From: a virus
Lineage: Duplodnaviria; Heunggongvirae; Uroviricota; Caudoviricetes
Length of the DNA: 4,887 nucleotides
IMG/VR virus record: IMGVR_UViG_2734482592_000014
Direction: 5' to 3' (one strand)
A program made the position numbers and the translations under genes. The notes below the pieces were generated by a model, which saw only the letters and a list, made by a program, of their open reading frames with translations, was not told the DNA's origin and did no database searches. Each line of letters opens with the position of its first letter. The first letter of the stretch is position 1. This document shows, piece by piece, positions 1 through 4,887 of this stretch.

Positions 1-672
1 ATGGCAGCGACGCACACACTCCCTCTGGCGTCACCGGGCATGGCACGCATCTGCCTTTACGGGGATTTGCAACGATTTGGCCGCCGCATCGACCTTCGTG
101 TGAAAACGGGTGCCGAAGCCATCCGGGCGATGGCCACACAGCTCCCTGCGTTTCGTCAGAAGCTGAGCGACGGCTGGTATCAGGTGCGTATTGCCGGGCA
201 GGATGTTAGCACGTCCGGATTAACGGCACAGTTACATGAGGCTCTGCCTGACGGCGCTGTGATTCATATTGTTCCCAGAGTCGCCGGGGCCAAGTCAGGT
301 GGTGTATTCCAGATTGTCCTGGGAGCAGCCGCCATTGCCGGATCATTCTTTACCGCCGGAGCCACCCTTGCAGCATGGGGGGCTGCCATTGGTGCCGGTG
401 GTATGACCGGCATTCTGTTTTCTCTCGGTGCCAGTATGGTGCTCGGCGGTGTGGCTCAGATGCTGGCACCGAAAGCCAGAACTCCCCGCACACAGACAAC
501 GGATAACGGTAAGCAGAACACCTATTTCTCCTCACTGGATAACATGGTTGCCCAGGGCAATGTTATGCCTGTTCTGTATGGTGAAATGCGCGTGGGGTCA
601 CGTGTGGTATCTCAGGAGATCAGCACGGCAGACGAAGGGGACGGTGGTCAGGTTGTGGTGATTGGTCGCTGA
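1..672 (+). CDS. I: Tail tip assembly protein I (lambda gpI family), complete
   Basis: ATG at 1 to TGA at 670-672, 223 aa. The translation MAATHTLPLASPGMARICLYGDLQRFGRRIDLRVK...GDGGQVVVIGR matches my recollection of phage lambda gpI almost residue for residue, including the Gly/Ala-rich hydrophobic segment (GAAAIAGSFFTAGATLAAWGAAIGAGGMTGILFSLGASMVLGG). Position directly upstream of J matches lambda gene order. Its RBS would lie upstream of the window. Confidence 0.9.
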   Translation: MAATHTLPLASPGMARICLYGDLQRFGRRIDLRVKTGAEAIRAMATQLPAFRQKLSDGWYQVRIAGQDVSTSGLTAQLHEALPDGAVIHIVPRVAGAKSGGVFQIVLGAAAIAGSFFTAGATLAAWGAAIGAGGMTGILFSLGASMVLGGVAQMLAPKARTPRTQTTDNGKQNTYFSSLDNMVAQGNVMPVLYGEMRVGSRVVSQEISTADEGDGGQVVVIGR

Positions 673-732: not shown

Positions 733-3700
733 ATGGGTAAAGGCAGCAGTAAGGGGCATACCCCGCGCGAAGCGAAGGACAACCTGAAGTCCACGCAGCT
801 GCTGAGTGTGATCGATGCCATCAGTGAAGGGCCGGTTGAAGGTCCGGTGGATGGATTAAAAAGCGTGCTGCTGAACAGTACGCCGGTGCTGGACAATGAG
901 GGGAATACCAACATCTCCGGCGTCACGGTGGTGTTCCGGGCAGGTGAGCAGGAGCAGTCACCGCCGGAGGGATTTGAATCCTCCGGCTCCGAGACGGTGC
1001 TGGGTACGGAAGTGAAATATGACACGCCGATCACCCGGACCATCACGTCGGCAAACATTGACCGACTGCGTTTTACCTTCGGTGTACAGGCACTGGTGGA
1101 AACCACCTCAAAGGGAGACAGGAATCCGTCTGAAGTTCGCCTGCTGGTTCAGATACAGCGTAACGGTGGCTGGGTGACGGAAAAAGACATCACCATTAAG
1201 GGCAAAACCACCTCGCAGTATCTGGCCTCGGTGGTGGTGGATAACCTGCCGCCGCGCCCGTTTAATATCCGGATGCGCAGAATGACGCCGGACAGCACCA
1301 CAGACCAGCTGCAGAACAAAACGCTCTGGTCGTCATACACCGAAATCATCGATGTGAAACAGTGCTACCCGAACACGGCACTGGTCGGCGTACAGGTGGA
1401 TTCGGAGCAGTTCGGCAGCCAGCAGGTGAGCCGTAATTATCATCTTCGCGGGCGCATTCTGCAGGTGCCGTCGAACTATAATCCGCAGACGCGGCAATAC
1501 AGCGGTATCTGGGACGGAACGTTAAAACCGGCATACAGCAACAACATGGCCTGGTGTCTGTGGGATATGCTGACCCATCCGCGCTATGGCATGGGGAAAC
1601 GTCTTGGTGCGGCAGATGTGGATAAATGGGCGCTGTATGTCATCGGCCAGTACTGTGACCAGTCGGTGCCGGACGGCTTTGGCAGCACGGAGCCGCGCAT
1701 CACCTGTAATGCCTGGCTGACCACACAGCGCAAGGCGTGGGATGTGCTCAGTGATTTCTGCTCGGCGATGCGCTGTATGCCGGTATGGAACGGGCAGACG
1801 CTGACATTCGTGCAGGACCGACAGTCGGATAAGGTGTGGGCCTATAACCGCAGTAATGTGGTGATGCCGGATGATGGCGCGCCGTTCCGCTACAGCTTCA
1901 GCGCCCTGAAAGACCGCCATAATGCCGTTGAGGTGAACTGGATTGACCCGNNNNNNNNNNNNNNNNNNNNNNNNNNNNNNNNNNNNNNNNNNNNNNNNNN
2001 NNNNNNNNNNNNNNNNNNNNNNNNNNNNNNNNNNNNNNNNNNNNNNNNNNNNNNNNNNNNNNNNNNNNNNNNNNNNNNNNNNNNNNNNNNNNNNNNNNNN
2101 NNNNNNNNNNNNNNNNNNNNNNNNNNNNNNNNNNNNNNNNNNNNNNNNNNNNNTCAGCGTGGGTGCTGAAGGGCTTCGTCATGTACCGGGCGATGTCATT
2201 GAAATCTGTGATGATGACTATGCGGGTATCAGCATCGGCGGGCGCGTGCTGGNNNNNNNNNNNNNNNNNNNNNNNNNNNNNNNNNNAACGGCTGGGAGAC
2301 GGCGACAGAGCTTGTGGAGGACACGCAGGCCATTGCCCGTTACGGTCGTAACGTCACGAAGATGGATGCCTTTGGCTGTACCAGCCGGGGGCAGGCACAC
2401 CGCGCAGGGCTGTGGCTGATTAAAACAGAACTGCTGGAAACGCAGACCGTGGACTTCAGCGTGGGCGCAGAAGGGCTTCGCCATGTGCCGGGCGATGTCA
2501 TTGAAATCTGTGATGATGACTATGCCGGTATCAGCACCGGCGGGCGCGTGCTGGCGGTAAACAGCCAGACCCGGACGCTGACGCTCGACCGTGAAATCAC
2601 GCTGCCATCCTCCGGTACCATGCTGATAAGCCTGGTTGACGGAAGTGGCAATCCGGTCAGCGTGGAGGTTCAGTCCGTCACCGACGGCGTGAAGGTGAAA
2701 GTGAGCCGTGTTCCTGACGGCGTTGCTGAATACAGCGTGTGGGGGCTGAAGCTGCCGACGTTGCGCCAGCGCCTGTTCCGCTGTGTGAGTATCCGTGAGA
2801 ACGANNNNNNNNNNNNNNNNNNNNNNNNNNNNNNNNNNNNNNNNNNNNNNNNNNNNNNNNNNNNNNNNNNNNNNNNNNNNNNNNNNNNNNNNNNNNNNNN
2901 NNNNNNNNNNNNNNNNNNNNNNNNNNNNNNNNNNNNNNNNNNNNNNNNNNNNNNNNNNNNNNNNNNNNNNNNNNNNNNNNNNNNNNNNNNNNNNNNNNNN
3001 NNNNNNNNNNNNNNNNNNNNNNNNNNNNNNNNNNNNNNNNNNNNNNNNNNNNNNNNNNNNNNNNNNNNNNNNNNNNNNNNNNNNNNNNNNNNNNNNNNNN
3101 NNNNGCTGACAGTCCGGGCGGTAAATGCCTGGGGACAGCAGGGCGATCCGGCGTCGGTATCGTTCAGGATTGCCGCACCGGTAGCACCGTCGCGGATTGA
3201 NNNNNNNNNNNNNNNNNNNNNNNNNNNNNNNNNNNNNNNNNNNNNNNNNNNNNNNNNNNNNNNNNNNNNNNNNNNNNNNNNNNNNNNNNNNNNNNNNNNN
3301 NNNNNNNNNNNNNNNNNNNNNNNNNNNNNNNNNNNNNNNNNNNNNNNNNNNNNNNNNNNNNNNNNNNNNNNNNNNNNNNNNNNNNNNNNNNNNNNNNNNN
3401 NNNNNNNNNNNNNNNNNNNNNNNNNNNNNNNNNNNNNNNNNNNNNNNNNNCGTGGATAACGGGGCGCACTTTGACGGCGACCAGAGCGGCACGGTGAATG
3501 GTGTCACGCCGCCAGCGGTGCAGCACCTGACTGCCGAAGTCACCGCAGACAGCGGGGAATATCAGGTGCTGGCGCGCTGGGACACGCCGAAGGTGGTGAA
3601 GGGCGTGAGCTTCCTGCTCCGTCTGACCGTAACAGCGGATGACGGCAGTGAGCGGCTGGTCAGCACGGCCCGGACGACGGAAACCACTTACCGCTTCACA

Positions 3701-4887
3701 CAACTGGCGCTGGGGAACTACAGGCTGACAGTCCGGGCAGTAAATGCGTGGGGGCAGCAGGGCGATCCGGCGTCGGTATCGTTCCGGATTGCCGCACCGG
3801 CAGCGCTGTCGCGGATTGAGCTGACGCCGGGCTATTTTCAGATAACCGCCACGCCGCATCTTGCGGTTTATGATCCGACGGTACAGTTTGAGTTCTGGTT
3901 CTCGGAAAAGCGGATTGCGGATATCAGGCAGGTTGAAACCACAGCACGCTATCTTGGCACGGCGCTGTACTGGATAGCCGCCAGTATCAATATCAAACCG
4001 GGCCATGATTATTACTTTTATATCCGCAGTGTGAACACCGTTGGCAAATCGGCATTCGTGGAGGCTGTTGGTCAGCCGAGTGATGATGCATCCGGTTATC
4101 TGGATTTTTTCAAAGGCGAGATAGGGAAAACCCATCTGGCTCAGGAGCTGTGGACGCAGATTGATAACGGTCAGCTTGCGCCTGACCTGGCTGAAATCAG
4201 GACGTCCATTACGGATGTCAGCAATGAAATCACGCAGACCGTCAATAAGAAACTGGAAGACCAGAGTGCGGCAATTCAGCAGATACAGAAGGTTCAGGTT
4301 GATACAAATAATAACCTGAACAGCATGTGGGCTGTGAAGCTGCAGCAGATGCAGGACGGACGCCTTTATATCGCGGGTATTGGTGCCGGTATTGAGAACA
4401 CCCCTGACGGCATGCAGAGTCAGGTGCTGCTGGCGGCGGACAGGATTGCGATGGTTAATCCTGCGAATGGCAACACAAAACCGATGTTTGTTGGTCAGGG
4501 CGATCAGATATTCATGAACGACGTGTTCCTGAAACGCCTGACGGCCCCCACCATTACCAGCGGTGGAAATCCATCGGCATTTTCCCTGACTCCGGACGGA
4601 AAGCTGACCGCTAAAAATGCGGATATCAGTGGCAGTGTGAATGCGAACGCCGGGACGCTCAACAATGTCACGGTAAATGAAAACTGTACGATTAAGGGCA
4701 TGCTGGAGGCGACTCAGGTCAGAGGTGACTTCGTTAAAGCTGTATCCAAATCATTTCCGAAACAGGCTGGTACGTGGGGTAACACGGAAACACCAAACGG
4801 GACGGTTACAGTCACCATAAGCGATGATCATAACTTTGACCGCCAGATTATTATTCCGCCCATTATTTTTAACGGTATAGCGTATGA
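733..4887 (+). CDS. J: Tail tip attachment / host specificity protein J (lambda gpJ family); 5' end complete, 3' end beyond window, interrupted by N runs
   Basis: ATG at 733 sits 8 nt after GGAG (721-724). Readable segments: A 733-1950 ([34 protein letters not shown]...[11 protein letters not shown], phase 1), B 2287-2804 ([20 protein letters not shown]...[10 protein letters not shown], phase 1), C 3452-4887 ([25 protein letters not shown]...IIFNGIAY, phase 2, no stop before window end). All three are collinear with lambda gpJ as I recall it. Phase differs between B and C because the N-run lengths are not true lengths. Confidence 0.9.
1951..2153. other. N run (203 nt), assembly gap or masked sequence inside J
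   Basis: Contiguous n characters; starts on a J codon boundary after ...WIDP. Confidence 0.95.
2154..2252 (+). repeat. 99-nt island between gaps: diverged copy of J segment 2456-2554
   Basis: Manual alignment to 2456-2554 gives 6 mismatches in 99 nt. In the coding phase ([32 protein letters not shown]) 5 are synonymous and 1 changes Thr to Ile. The island is in phase 2, while flanking J segments A and B are in phase 1. Confidence 0.85.
2253..2286. other. N run (34 nt), assembly gap or masked sequence
   Basis: Contiguous n characters. Confidence 0.95.
2805..3104. other. N run (exactly 300 nt), assembly gap or masked sequence inside J
   Basis: Contiguous n characters; round length suggests a placeholder or estimated gap. 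Confidence 0.95.
3105..3200 (+). repeat. 96-nt island between gaps: diverged copy of J segment 3724-3819
   Basis: Manual alignment to 3724-3819 gives 7 mismatches in 96 nt. In coding phase ([31 protein letters not shown]) 5 are synonymous and 2 are nonsynonymous (V/A, P/L versus AAPAALSRI in the main copy). Confidence 0.85.
3201..3450. other. N run (exactly 250 nt), assembly gap or masked sequence inside J
   Basis: Contiguous n characters; round length suggests a placeholder or estimated gap. Confidence 0.95.

What the first reader, a model, noticed from the sequence alone, without database searches (positions are those of the whole stretch)
4118..4480. Central J segment diverges from lambda between conserved flanks (mosaic J)
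Upstream sequence through ...[30 protein letters not shown] and downstream sequence from [28 protein letters not shown] match lambda gpJ closely as I recall it. The intervening roughly 120 residues ([121 protein letters not shown]) are largely different from lambda's [92 protein letters not shown], keeping only scattered anchors (MWAVK, DG..Y.AGIG, PANGN). The segment is Q/N/E-rich and probably helical. This is the classic signature of modular recombination in lambdoid tail fibers.
Basis: partly seen in the sequence, partly recalled or inferred. Interest (0 to 1): 0.45.

Follow-up and report, generated by a model that had tools for sequence, protein, structure and literature searches.

The report
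Swapped trigger segment in lambda-like tail fibre
The tail-tip gene J in this E. coli prophage is almost identical to phage lambda's, except for a roughly 120-residue cassette that is a different, common, long-diverged version swapped in by recombination; this is real but an ordinary, well-known kind of phage tail-fibre mosaicism.

Summary
Identity to lambda gpJ is 214/222 aa upstream (J 599-820). It collapses to about 34% across the segment, with a 28-aa length difference, and recovers to 60/67 aa downstream.

The mosaic interpretation is supported. Across 17 sequenced phages and 80 viral contigs, the hub, FN3-2, helical segment, upper fibre, lower fibre and receptor-binding domain occur in different combinations. 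All four combinations are present for several segment pairs. Junctions cluster at domain boundaries.

The segment corresponds to lambda's AHS helix bundle (809-861) plus the top of the beta-prism fibre (CSF). In lambda this is the element that refolds on LamB binding and releases the tail tip. The window's AHS is 76 aa against lambda's 48, a difference of exactly four heptads. Three diverged alleles share the long form; only lambda-type alleles are short.

Both alleles are very common. The window type is in 3,609 of 5,426 complete E. coli genomes and the lambda type in 2,643. Both are annotated as gpJ.

Only the first 69 residues are likely helical; the rest is beta-prism by homology.

The verdict is a real, already-known kind of feature of modest interest. 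Separately, window 1951-3450 contains scaffold artefacts.

The parts
1..672 (+). gpI tail-tip assembly protein gene (223 aa), upstream neighbour of J
   Evidence: ORF; Pfam Lambda_tail_I E=3.4e-27; 218/223 aa identical to lambda I
733..4887 (+). gpJ (tip attachment / central tail fibre protein). It is interrupted by scaffold artefacts at 1951-2286 and 2805-3450 and runs off the window end inside the RBD. The intact gene is 1165 aa in the contig L019, which is 100% identical to the window over 3451-4887 and 99.8% over 1-1950.
   Evidence: Pfam FNIII-A_GpJ, Phage-tail_3, Ig_J, Ig_J_second, Phage_Tail_Tip, Ig_GpJ_C in order; blastn to lambda J; L019 comparison
1951..2286 (.). Scaffold artefact: N runs 1951-2153 and 2253-2286 flanking a 99-nt island (2154-2252) that duplicates window 2456-2554 at 93.9%
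   Evidence: Lambda and L019 coordinates are continuous across this stretch (only 3 nt missing).
2805..3450 (.). Scaffold artefact: N runs 2805-3104 and 3201-3450 flanking a 96-nt island (3105-3200) that duplicates window 3724-3819 at 92.7%
   Evidence: Only 54 nt of real J sequence correspond to these 646 nt.
3809..4111 (+). FNIII-2 (Pfam Ig_J_second), the conserved upstream flank. In VT1-Sakai and Stx2a_WGPS6 the imported window-like tract already begins here (junctions at about 3780 and 3850).
   Evidence: Pfam; sliding identity
4082..4165 (+). AHS helix 1 (J aa 809-836, [28 protein letters not shown]). It is homologous to the lambda upper AHS helix, and divergence from lambda begins within it at aa 819-821.
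   Evidence: Alignment to lambda 813-837 in PDB chains 8xcj/8iyk; lambda AHS definition in PMC11101478; AF2 helices, low confidence
4166..4183 (+). Helix break NGQLAP (J aa 837-842)
   Evidence: Gly/Pro content read from the sequence; non-helical in the AF2 model (low confidence)
4184..4324 (+). AHS helix 2, long form (J aa 843-889, 47 aa, DLAEIR...NNLNS). It is the positional equivalent of lambda 837-861, which converts to beta strands on LamB binding. It carries the 28-aa (four-heptad) excess over lambda. There is no nucleotide match to lambda and no solved-structure relative.
   Evidence: heptad scan; lambda fold change in PMC11101478
4325..4480 (+). Top of the central straight fibre (CSF beta-prism), J aa 890-941. 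It is 56% aa identical to lambda 862-913 and the same length in all alleles.
   Evidence: Pfam Phage_Tail_Tip
4481..4681 (+). Lower CSF (J aa 942-1008), the conserved downstream flank (60/67 aa to lambda). It acts as a homology tract where the RBD junctions of 2851, Chlobot and Lambda_2E9 fall.
4682..4887 (+). Start of the receptor-binding domain (cut by the window end). It is a different allele from lambda's LamB-binding RBD.
   Evidence: Pfam Ig_GpJ_C from nt 4742; no blastn match to lambda after 4711; RBD allele clustering

Best explanation
Window 4118-4480 encodes J residues 821-941 of a lambda-like central tail-fibre protein. This covers most of the alpha-helical segment (AHS) that clamps the three FNIII-2 domains together under the closed tail tip, plus the top third of the beta-prism fibre (CSF) below it. 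The window carries a long-diverged allele of this region, different from lambda's. The allele was placed between lambda-like flanks by homologous recombination among the many J genes of lambdoid phages and prophages in E. coli. The conserved FNIII-2 and lower-CSF sequences served as crossover tracts. The shown steps are the allele difference, its domain position, its reassortment relative to hub and RBD, and its abundance. The following steps are inferred by homology with the solved lambda structures. The AHS forms a trimeric helical bundle in the closed state. On receptor binding by the RBD, a twist propagates up the CSF. The AHS then lets go of the FNIII trimer, flips, and partly refolds into beta strands on top of the CSF, opening the tip for DNA ejection. 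The window allele has a second helix of about 47 residues instead of about 25, which is four more heptads. It is therefore expected to build a longer bundle and possibly a larger refolded cap. The functional consequence of that difference is unknown.
For: Observation and breakpoints. Domain mapping: Pfam Ig_J_second ends at fragment aa 220 and Phage_Tail_Tip starts at aa 274. PDB lambda J chains match both flanks and helix 1. The lambda AHS (809-861), the CSF and the open/closed rearrangement are described in PMC11101478. Reassortment: segment identity matrix over 17 phages; sliding identity with junctions at about 3780, 3850, 4110, 4480 and 4590-4700. In the allele census of 88 C-terminal sequences, the window-type central allele occurs with four RBD alleles and the lambda-type with three, and two RBD alleles are shared between them. 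All four hub x central-allele combinations are present. Old divergence of the insert: no nt match in the AHS and third-position identity of 0.0-0.55. Not an assembly chimera: complete phages phi458, ev099, cdtI and Ayreon match 3451-4887 in one piece at 96-97.6%, and contigs L018/L019 match at 100%. Abundance: 3,609 of 5,426 complete E. coli genomes carry the window type, with up to 6 copies each, and 2,643 carry the lambda type. This gives ample substrate for inter-prophage recombination. Lab precedent: lambda J nt 1545-2796 was replaced by recombination with a relict prophage J homologue and phage fitness doubled (preprint 10.1101/2020.11.02.365361). Length: 76 vs 48 aa, with the long form ungapped in three alleles that are 63-64% aa identical to the window in the AHS (about 62-71% over the wider 170-aa stretch).
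Against: No recombination event is dated or directly reconstructed for this particular sequence; reassortment is inferred from discordant similarity. The 88-sequence census was biased toward window-like sequences, as the 82:6 ratio compared shows. Helical structure of the AHS rests on homology for helix 1 only. The AF2 monomer model is poor (pLDDT 46), and helix 2 has no solved relative. The idea that AHS and CSF-top move together as a co-adapted unit is contradicted by the PhiR12-type phages: their AHS is nearest the Stx1 type and their CSF-top is nearest the window type. No functional difference between the alleles has been measured.
Confidence: 0.88

Rival explanations
1. The junction is an assembly chimera. 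The source record is a gapped scaffold from a genome with several J paralogues, so reads from two different prophages were joined at 4118 and 4480.
For: The window does contain scaffold artefacts (N runs and duplicated islands at 93-94% identity). Its middle piece 2287-2804 is only 94.6% identical to the contig that matches its flanks at 99.8-100%. E. coli genomes carry up to 6 copies of this block.
Against: Window 3451-4887 is contiguous with no N. It is matched in one ungapped piece by complete phage genomes (phi458 97.6%, ev099, cdtI, Ayreon), by two independent IMG/VR contigs at 100% and by closed E. coli chromosomes.
Confidence: 0.02
2. The segment diverged in place from a lambda-like ancestor under strong diversifying selection, with no recombination.
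For: Tail-fibre regions are known targets of diversifying selection. The segment keeps scattered anchors (MWAVK, DG..Y.AGIG, PANGN), as expected of constrained positions.
Against: Synonymous (third-position) identity is saturated inside the block and 85-100% just outside it. The allele is 92-100% conserved across thousands of genomes rather than hypervariable. The same allele occurs on hubs that differ by 20-30% in nucleotide sequence.
Confidence: 0.04
3. The variability is generated by a dedicated diversification mechanism: a diversity-generating retroelement targeting the fibre, or an invertible segment as in Mu G or P1 C.
For: Both mechanisms are known for phage tail-fibre genes (established knowledge).
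Against: There is no template-like direct repeat of the segment. Only short, imperfect inverted repeats (16-19 nt, 76-88%) occur in 3451-4887. The difference from lambda includes an 84-nt length change and is not adenine-specific. Alleles are discrete and stable. No reverse transcriptase or invertase gene lies next to J in the 17 annotated phages.
Confidence: 0.01
4. Polarity rival: the window carries the ancestral long form and the lambda lineage is the derived one, having lost four heptads of helix 2. On this view the 'divergent insert' is really lambda's peculiarity.
For: The 76-aa AHS is shared without gaps by three alleles that are 63-64% aa identical to the window in the AHS, on both hub classes. 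PhiR49_2 has 78 aa, and only lambda-type alleles have 48. The C-terminal 23 residues of helix 2 align weakly with lambda 839-861.
Against: This does not remove the need for recombination, because both alleles are found on near-identical hubs and with the same RBDs. Rooting is not established, since no outgroup analysis was done.
Confidence: 0.55

Closest known systems
Bacteriophage lambda gpJ (tip attachment protein J, UniProt P03749; PDB 8iyk, 8xcj, 8xck)
   Same: Same gene position after gpI, same Pfam domain order, and 96-99% aa identity over the hub and FNIII domains. It has the same AHS/CSF/RBD layout. Helix 1 of the AHS and the lower CSF are clearly homologous.
   Different: AHS helix 2 is 28 aa longer and is unalignable at nucleotide level. 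CSF-top is only 56% identical, and the RBD is a different allele.
J proteins of phages phi458, cdtI, ev099, Ayreon, Kati, Chlobot, Lambda_2E9; prophage gpJ in E. coli chromosomes (e.g. NZ_CP025840.1)
   Same: The central segment is 96-100% identical at the aa/nt level, and the whole of 3451-4887 is 95-97.6% identical in several of them. These are the same allele, already sequenced and annotated as J / tail fibre.
   Different: Individual phages differ from the window in the adjacent cassettes. Chlobot, ev017 and 2E9 have other RBDs, and phi458 has a slightly different FNIII-1.
J of Stx-converting and O157 prophages (VT1-Sakai, Stx2a_WGPS6, 2851, Stx1_132418)
   Same: Same architecture. VT1-Sakai and WGPS6 carry the window-type FNIII-2/AHS/CSF-top tract, and 2851 and WGPS6 carry the window-type RBD.
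   Different: Their hubs are only 70-81% nt identical. 2851 and Stx1_132418 carry a third long AHS allele (63-64% aa identity) with a different CSF-top (54%).
F7 pyocin central fibre coiled-coil to beta-prism fold switch (preprint PMC12874032)
   Same: A helical trimeric segment above a beta-prism seed in a siphophage-type central fibre, with refolding on receptor binding proposed to power tip opening. The window's AHS shows an excess of near-matches to the published SxSxxMxxLxS pattern.
   Different: No sequence homology was shown. The switching segment there is 163 residues, against about 47 here. The motif test was post hoc and is confounded by coiled-coil periodicity, and lambda's own switching helix does not match the motif.
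Lab-evolved lambda recombinant with REL606 relict prophage gene ECB_00512 (Borin et al., preprint 10.1101/2020.11.02.365361)
   Same: Homologous recombination replaced J nt 1545-2796 (aa 515-932), a tract that includes FNIII domains, the AHS and CSF-top, and it changed fitness.
   Different: That donor differed by only 49 substitutions with no length change reported, so it was a lambda-type allele. Here the exchanged allele is deeply diverged.

Membership tests
Lambda-type tip attachment protein J (central tail fibre) | Ordered domain set FNIII-A_GpJ, Phage-tail_3, Ig_J, Ig_J_second, Phage_Tail_Tip, Ig_GpJ_C | tested here: met
   All six Pfam families score above their cut-offs in the expected order.
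Lambda-type tip attachment protein J (central tail fibre) | Encoded directly downstream of tail assembly gene I in the tail-tip gene block | tested here: met
   gpI lies at 1-672 (Pfam Lambda_tail_I) and J starts at 733. The order is the same in lambda and in 16 other phages.
Lambda-type tip attachment protein J (central tail fibre) | Single uninterrupted ORF of about 1130-1230 aa | tested here: inconclusive
   In the window the frame is broken by N runs and duplicated islands. The contig L019, which is 100% identical to the window over 3451-4887 and 99.8% over 1-1950, has an intact 1165-aa ORF.
Lambda-type tip attachment protein J (central tail fibre) | Trimeric assembly at the tail tip and receptor-triggered opening | not testable with these tools
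   Inferred from lambda structures (PMC11101478).
AHS helix bundle of gpJ (lambda residues 809-861) | Located between FNIII-2 and the CSF beta-prism | tested here: met
   It lies between Ig_J_second (ends at fragment aa 220) and the MWAVK start of the CSF (fragment aa 292).
AHS helix bundle of gpJ (lambda residues 809-861) | Sequence homology to the lambda AHS | tested here: inconclusive
   Helix 1 aligns to lambda 813-837 (15/25 identical; E 0.03-0.1 on a 79-aa query). Helix 2 shows no significant similarity; tblastn places only a weak alignment of its last 23 residues.
AHS helix bundle of gpJ (lambda residues 809-861) | Alpha-helical, coiled-coil-like secondary structure | tested here: inconclusive
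   The AF2 monomer gives helices 3-13, 17-27 and 34-80, but mean pLDDT is 46. A crude heptad scan shows a clean a/d run in [15 protein letters not shown].
AHS helix bundle of gpJ (lambda residues 809-861) | Helix-to-strand refolding onto the CSF after receptor binding | not testable with these tools
   Known only for lambda.
F7-pyocin-type coiled-coil to beta-prism fold-switching fibre segment | Repeated SxSxxMxxLxS pattern in the switching segment | tested here: inconclusive
   There are 8 windows with at least 4 of 5 positions, against 3.1 expected in shuffles (p about 0.004), and one 5/5 match. The criterion was chosen post hoc and shuffling also destroys ordinary coiled-coil periodicity.
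F7-pyocin-type coiled-coil to beta-prism fold-switching fibre segment | Both conformations predicted or observed for the trimer | not tested
   Only monomer AF2 was available.
DGR variable region / invertible fibre segment | Nearby template repeat, or flanking inverted repeats with a reverse transcriptase or invertase gene | tested here: not met
   No such repeats occur in 3451-4887. No RT or invertase gene is annotated beside J in the 17 phages. Alleles are discrete and stable.

The most novel reading that the evidence does not exclude
The AHS is an exchangeable 'trigger cassette' that sets how the central fibre responds once a receptor is bound, independently of which receptor that is. The long form (76-78 aa, carried by most E. 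coli J genes and structurally unsolved) would undergo a larger coiled-coil to beta-prism refolding than lambda's 21-residue switch. That would make it an intermediate between lambda and the 163-residue F7 pyocin switch. The exact four-heptad length difference would alter fibre length, trigger threshold or stored energy. Natural phage pairs that share hub and RBD but differ in AHS (for example Kati or phi458 versus mEp460_ev081 or PhiR11_1) would be ready-made test material.
Probability: 0.25. Interest if true: 0.5.

Novelty: already known. Interest (0 to 1): 0.27.

Why it matters
Mosaic tail-fibre genes are textbook phage biology. This allele is already sequenced in dozens of phages and thousands of E. 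coli genomes and is annotated as gpJ. The finding therefore mainly confirms that the scan can spot a genuine recombination cassette from sequence alone.

The modest added value is the mapping. The variable cassette is not the receptor-binding tip. It is the helical latch and the fibre top that transmit the receptor signal and refold in lambda.

This latch comes in a short (lambda) form and a long form that differ by exactly four heptads. Only the short form has been solved, although the long form is in two thirds of complete E. coli genomes.

Reassortment of the latch independently of the RBD offers natural allele series for studying how siphophage tails couple receptor binding to tip opening.

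Tried and rejected
1. AlphaFold2 on window 4085-4699 with a 16-sequence alignment gave mean pLDDT 46 and pTM 0.20. It was used only as weak secondary-structure support, and no fold search was run because a low-confidence model gives meaningless matches.

2. The search for homologous proteins returned almost only partial E. coli J fragments at 79-99% identity, so no deep alignment could be built.

3. An exact 60-nt search of the species-representative genome collection found nothing, so the source record was not identified. An earlier pattern I had guessed from the protein sequence matched nothing in the window and was discarded.

4. Chi sites (GCTGGTGG) as a cause of the junctions: there are none in the window.

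5. A DGR template repeat or an invertible segment: no supporting repeats.

6. The idea that AHS and CSF-top are one co-adapted, always-linked module looked true at 80% clustering in 88 sequences. It was rejected as a strict rule after the PhiR12 and Stx1 comparison.

7. My interim claim that lambda's allele is rare (6 of 88) was sampling bias. It was corrected by the census of complete genomes.

8. My first count of the length difference (25 aa) was wrong; the correct figure is 28.

9. The F7 fold-switch motif test gave nominal enrichment, but I do not rely on it.

10. Literature searches found no paper describing this AHS length dimorphism. Absence from the held library is not proof of absence.
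Full report
WHAT THE WINDOW IS

The window carries the end of a lambda-like tail gene block on the + strand. Gene I lies at 1-672 (223 aa, Pfam Lambda_tail_I, 218/223 aa identical to lambda I). Gene J starts at 733 and runs off the 3' end. J shows the full ordered Pfam set of lambda gpJ: FNIII-A_GpJ, Phage-tail_3, Ig_J, Ig_J_second, Phage_Tail_Tip and Ig_GpJ_C.

The window is not a clean sequence. Four N runs lie at 1951-2153, 2253-2286, 2805-3104 and 3201-3450. They enclose two short islands (2154-2252 and 3105-3200) that duplicate window 2456-2554 and 3724-3819 at 93-94% identity. Lambda coordinates are continuous across these stretches, with only 3 and 54 nt missing. So these are scaffold insertions of variant fragments from a paralogous J gene, not masked native sequence. 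The finding lies in the clean contiguous part, 3451-4887.

CHECK OF THE OBSERVATION

- I took lambda J from J02459 and aligned it.
- Identity to lambda is 214/222 aa for J 599-820. It is about 34% across the segment by tblastn, with 29/52 in its second half. It is 60/67 in the following 67 residues.
- At nucleotide level the window is 93.6-95.5% identical to lambda up to 4154. It is unmatched at 4155-4323, 78.9% identical at 4324-4711, and unmatched after that.
- In 20-codon windows, third-position identity is 0.85-1.0 in the flanks and 0.0-0.55 inside.
- The window is 28 residues longer than lambda here: 76 against 48 residues between YLDFFKG and MWAVK. My first count of 25 was wrong.

IS THE JUNCTION REAL?

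The record is a gapped scaffold, and E. coli genomes hold up to six copies of this block. An assembly chimera therefore had to be excluded.
- Complete phage genomes phi458, ev099, cdtI and Ayreon match 3451-4887 in one ungapped piece at 96-97.6%.
- Two IMG/VR contigs match it at 100%.
- Closed E. coli chromosomes contain it as well.
- In contig L019 the J gene is an intact 1165-aa ORF, and the finding corresponds to residues 821-941 of it.

WHAT THE SEGMENT IS STRUCTURALLY

Solved lambda J structures match both flanks. The lambda tail-LamB paper (PMC11101478) divides the C-terminal part of gpJ into four elements:
- FNIII-1 and FNIII-2;
- the AHS, a helix bundle below the FNIIIs that anchors the three FNIII-2 units;
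- the CSF, a beta-sheet prism;
- the RBD.

On LamB binding a twist travels up the CSF. The AHS flips by about 180 degrees and wraps onto the top of the CSF. Residues 809-840 remodel, and residues 841-861 change from helix to beta strands. The FNIII trimer is released and the tip opens.

Mapped onto this scheme, the finding covers the AHS from its 13th residue onward (J 821-889) plus the top of the CSF (J 890-941). Helix 1 ([24 protein letters not shown]) aligns with lambda 813-837. The long second helix has no detectable relative among solved structures, lambda's own included.

An AF2 monomer model was poor (pLDDT 46). It placed helices at 3-13 and 17-27, a break at NGQLAP, a 47-residue helix (DLAEIR...NNLNS), and then strands from VKLQQ. 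A crude heptad scan finds a clean a/d run in that helix.

It is wrong for the last 52, which belong to the beta-prism (Pfam Phage_Tail_Tip).

IS IT MODULAR RECOMBINATION?

I fetched J loci from 16 further phages and 80 viral contigs. The segment identity matrix shows two hub classes: lambda-like at 94-98% and Stx-like at 70-81%.
- The window-type AHS/CSF-top allele (92-100% nt) occurs on lambda-like hubs (phi458, Lambda_2E9, Chlobot, ev017, Kati) and on Stx-like hubs (VT1-Sakai, Stx2a_WGPS6).
- Lambda-type AHS occurs with the window-type RBD (mEp460_ev081, PhiR11_1).
- Phage 2851 combines an Stx hub, a third AHS allele and the window-type RBD.
- Among 88 C-terminal sequences, the window-type central allele is joined to four RBD alleles and the lambda type to three, with two RBD alleles shared between them.

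All four combinations are thus present for hub x central allele and for central allele x RBD. A single tree without recombination cannot produce that.

Sliding-window identity places junctions at:
- about 3780 (VT1-Sakai, the FNIII-1|FNIII-2 boundary);
- about 3850 (WGPS6);
- about 4110 (lambda-type phages, FNIII-2|AHS);
- about 4480 (CSF-top|lower CSF);
- 4590-4700 (RBD junctions of 2851, Chlobot and 2E9).

I had supposed that AHS and CSF-top travel together because they contact each other in the open state. That is not a strict rule. PhiR12-type AHS is closest to the Stx1 type (79-82% aa, against 64% to the window). Its CSF-top is closest to the window type (86%, against 54-58%). The C-terminal half of J therefore behaves as a chain of domain-sized cassettes.

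RIVAL MECHANISMS

- In-place diversifying selection is unlikely. Synonymous sites are saturated only inside the block. The alleles are discrete and 92-100% conserved across thousands of genomes.
- A DGR or an invertible segment is not supported. There is no template repeat and no meaningful flanking inverted repeat. No reverse transcriptase or invertase gene lies next to J in the annotated phages.
- There are no Chi sites in the window.

HOW COMMON IT IS, AND WHICH FORM IS THE ODD ONE

- In 5,426 complete E. coli genomes the window-type block occurs in 3,609 genomes (7,131 copies, median 2, maximum 6). The lambda-type block occurs in 2,643 genomes (4,263 copies). Nearly all are annotated as gpJ.
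- My 82:6 ratio was a sampling bias, because the 80 contigs were the closest to the window's FNIII query.
- The 76-aa AHS is shared, without gaps, by three alleles that are 63-64% aa identical to the window in the AHS, on both hub classes. PhiR49_2 has 78 aa. Only lambda-type alleles have 48.
- The difference of 28 residues is exactly four heptads, which would keep a coiled-coil register. The lab workhorse lambda thus carries the short form, and the only solved structures are of that form.

PRECEDENT

In a lambda coevolution experiment, J nt 1545-2796 (aa 515-932, spanning the FNIII domains, the AHS and CSF-top) was replaced by recombination with the relict prophage gene ECB_00512 of the host. 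This doubled phage fitness (preprint 10.1101/2020.11.02.365361). Exchange across this tract therefore happens on laboratory time scales and can matter for fitness.

A SPECULATIVE EXTENSION

A 2026 preprint on the F7 pyocin (PMC12874032) reports a 163-residue coiled-coil to beta-prism switch in a related type of central fibre. It gives a sequence pattern for the switching segment, SxSxxMxxLxS.

Near-matches to that pattern are enriched in the window's AHS (8 against 3.1 expected, p about 0.004) and not in lambda's. However, the criterion was chosen after seeing the data, and shuffling also removes ordinary coiled-coil periodicity. I treat this only as a lead.

VERDICT

- The feature is a known kind of thing in a known protein. 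The allele itself is already in databases many times over, so the novelty is 'already known'.
- The points worth keeping are these. The variable cassette is the signal-transmitting latch rather than the receptor-binding tip. It has a four-heptad length dimorphism. The more widespread long form has no solved structure.
- Interest is modest (0.27).

Noticed in passing
window 1951-3450: Four N runs (203, 34, 300 and 250 nt) enclose two islands (2154-2252, 3105-3200). The islands duplicate window 2456-2554 and 3724-3819 at 93-94% identity. Together they insert about 925 nt that do not exist in lambda or in the otherwise matching contig L019, and they break the J reading frame. They look like scaffolder-placed variant fragments from a second J paralogue.
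   Followed up: yes
window 2287-2804: This middle piece of J is only 94.6% identical to contig L019, although the flanking pieces 1-1950 and 3451-4887 are 99.8% and 100% identical to it. It matches other contigs (L027, L028, L031) at 98.8%. It may have been scaffolded in from a different J copy of the same genome.
   Followed up: partly
window 4682-4887: There is a second mosaic junction. From about 4690 the receptor-binding domain has no nucleotide match to lambda's LamB-binding RBD. It is 92-97% identical to the RBD of mEp460_ev081, PhiR11_1, 2851, Stx2a_WGPS6, Kati and phi458. The receptor for this RBD type was not determined here.
   Followed up: partly
window 3902-3961: A small patch inside FNIII-2 drops to 87% nt and 85% aa identity to lambda ([16 protein letters not shown] vs [16 protein letters not shown]) between stretches of 95-100%. 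It could be a short gene-conversion tract.
   Followed up: no
window 4106-4270 (J aa about 819-871): No Pfam model covers the stretch between Ig_J_second and Phage_Tail_Tip. This is most of the AHS, including the part that is absent from lambda.
   Followed up: no
E. coli complete genomes: J central-block alleles are highly multi-copy, with up to 6 copies of one allele per genome, and 12-32 copies lie on plasmids. Most database proteins matching the block are 'partial' fragments from contig ends, which suggests that J routinely breaks short-read assemblies.
   Followed up: no
L007 (PhiR12_5), L010 (PhiR29_2), L006 (VT1-Sakai): In several phages J is annotated as two ORFs or as truncated: VT1-Sakai 'truncated by a mutation', PhiR29_2 split at about aa 660, and PhiR12_5 J ending just after CSF-top with a separate downstream ORF. 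These may be defective or split J genes, or sequencing frameshifts.
   Followed up: no
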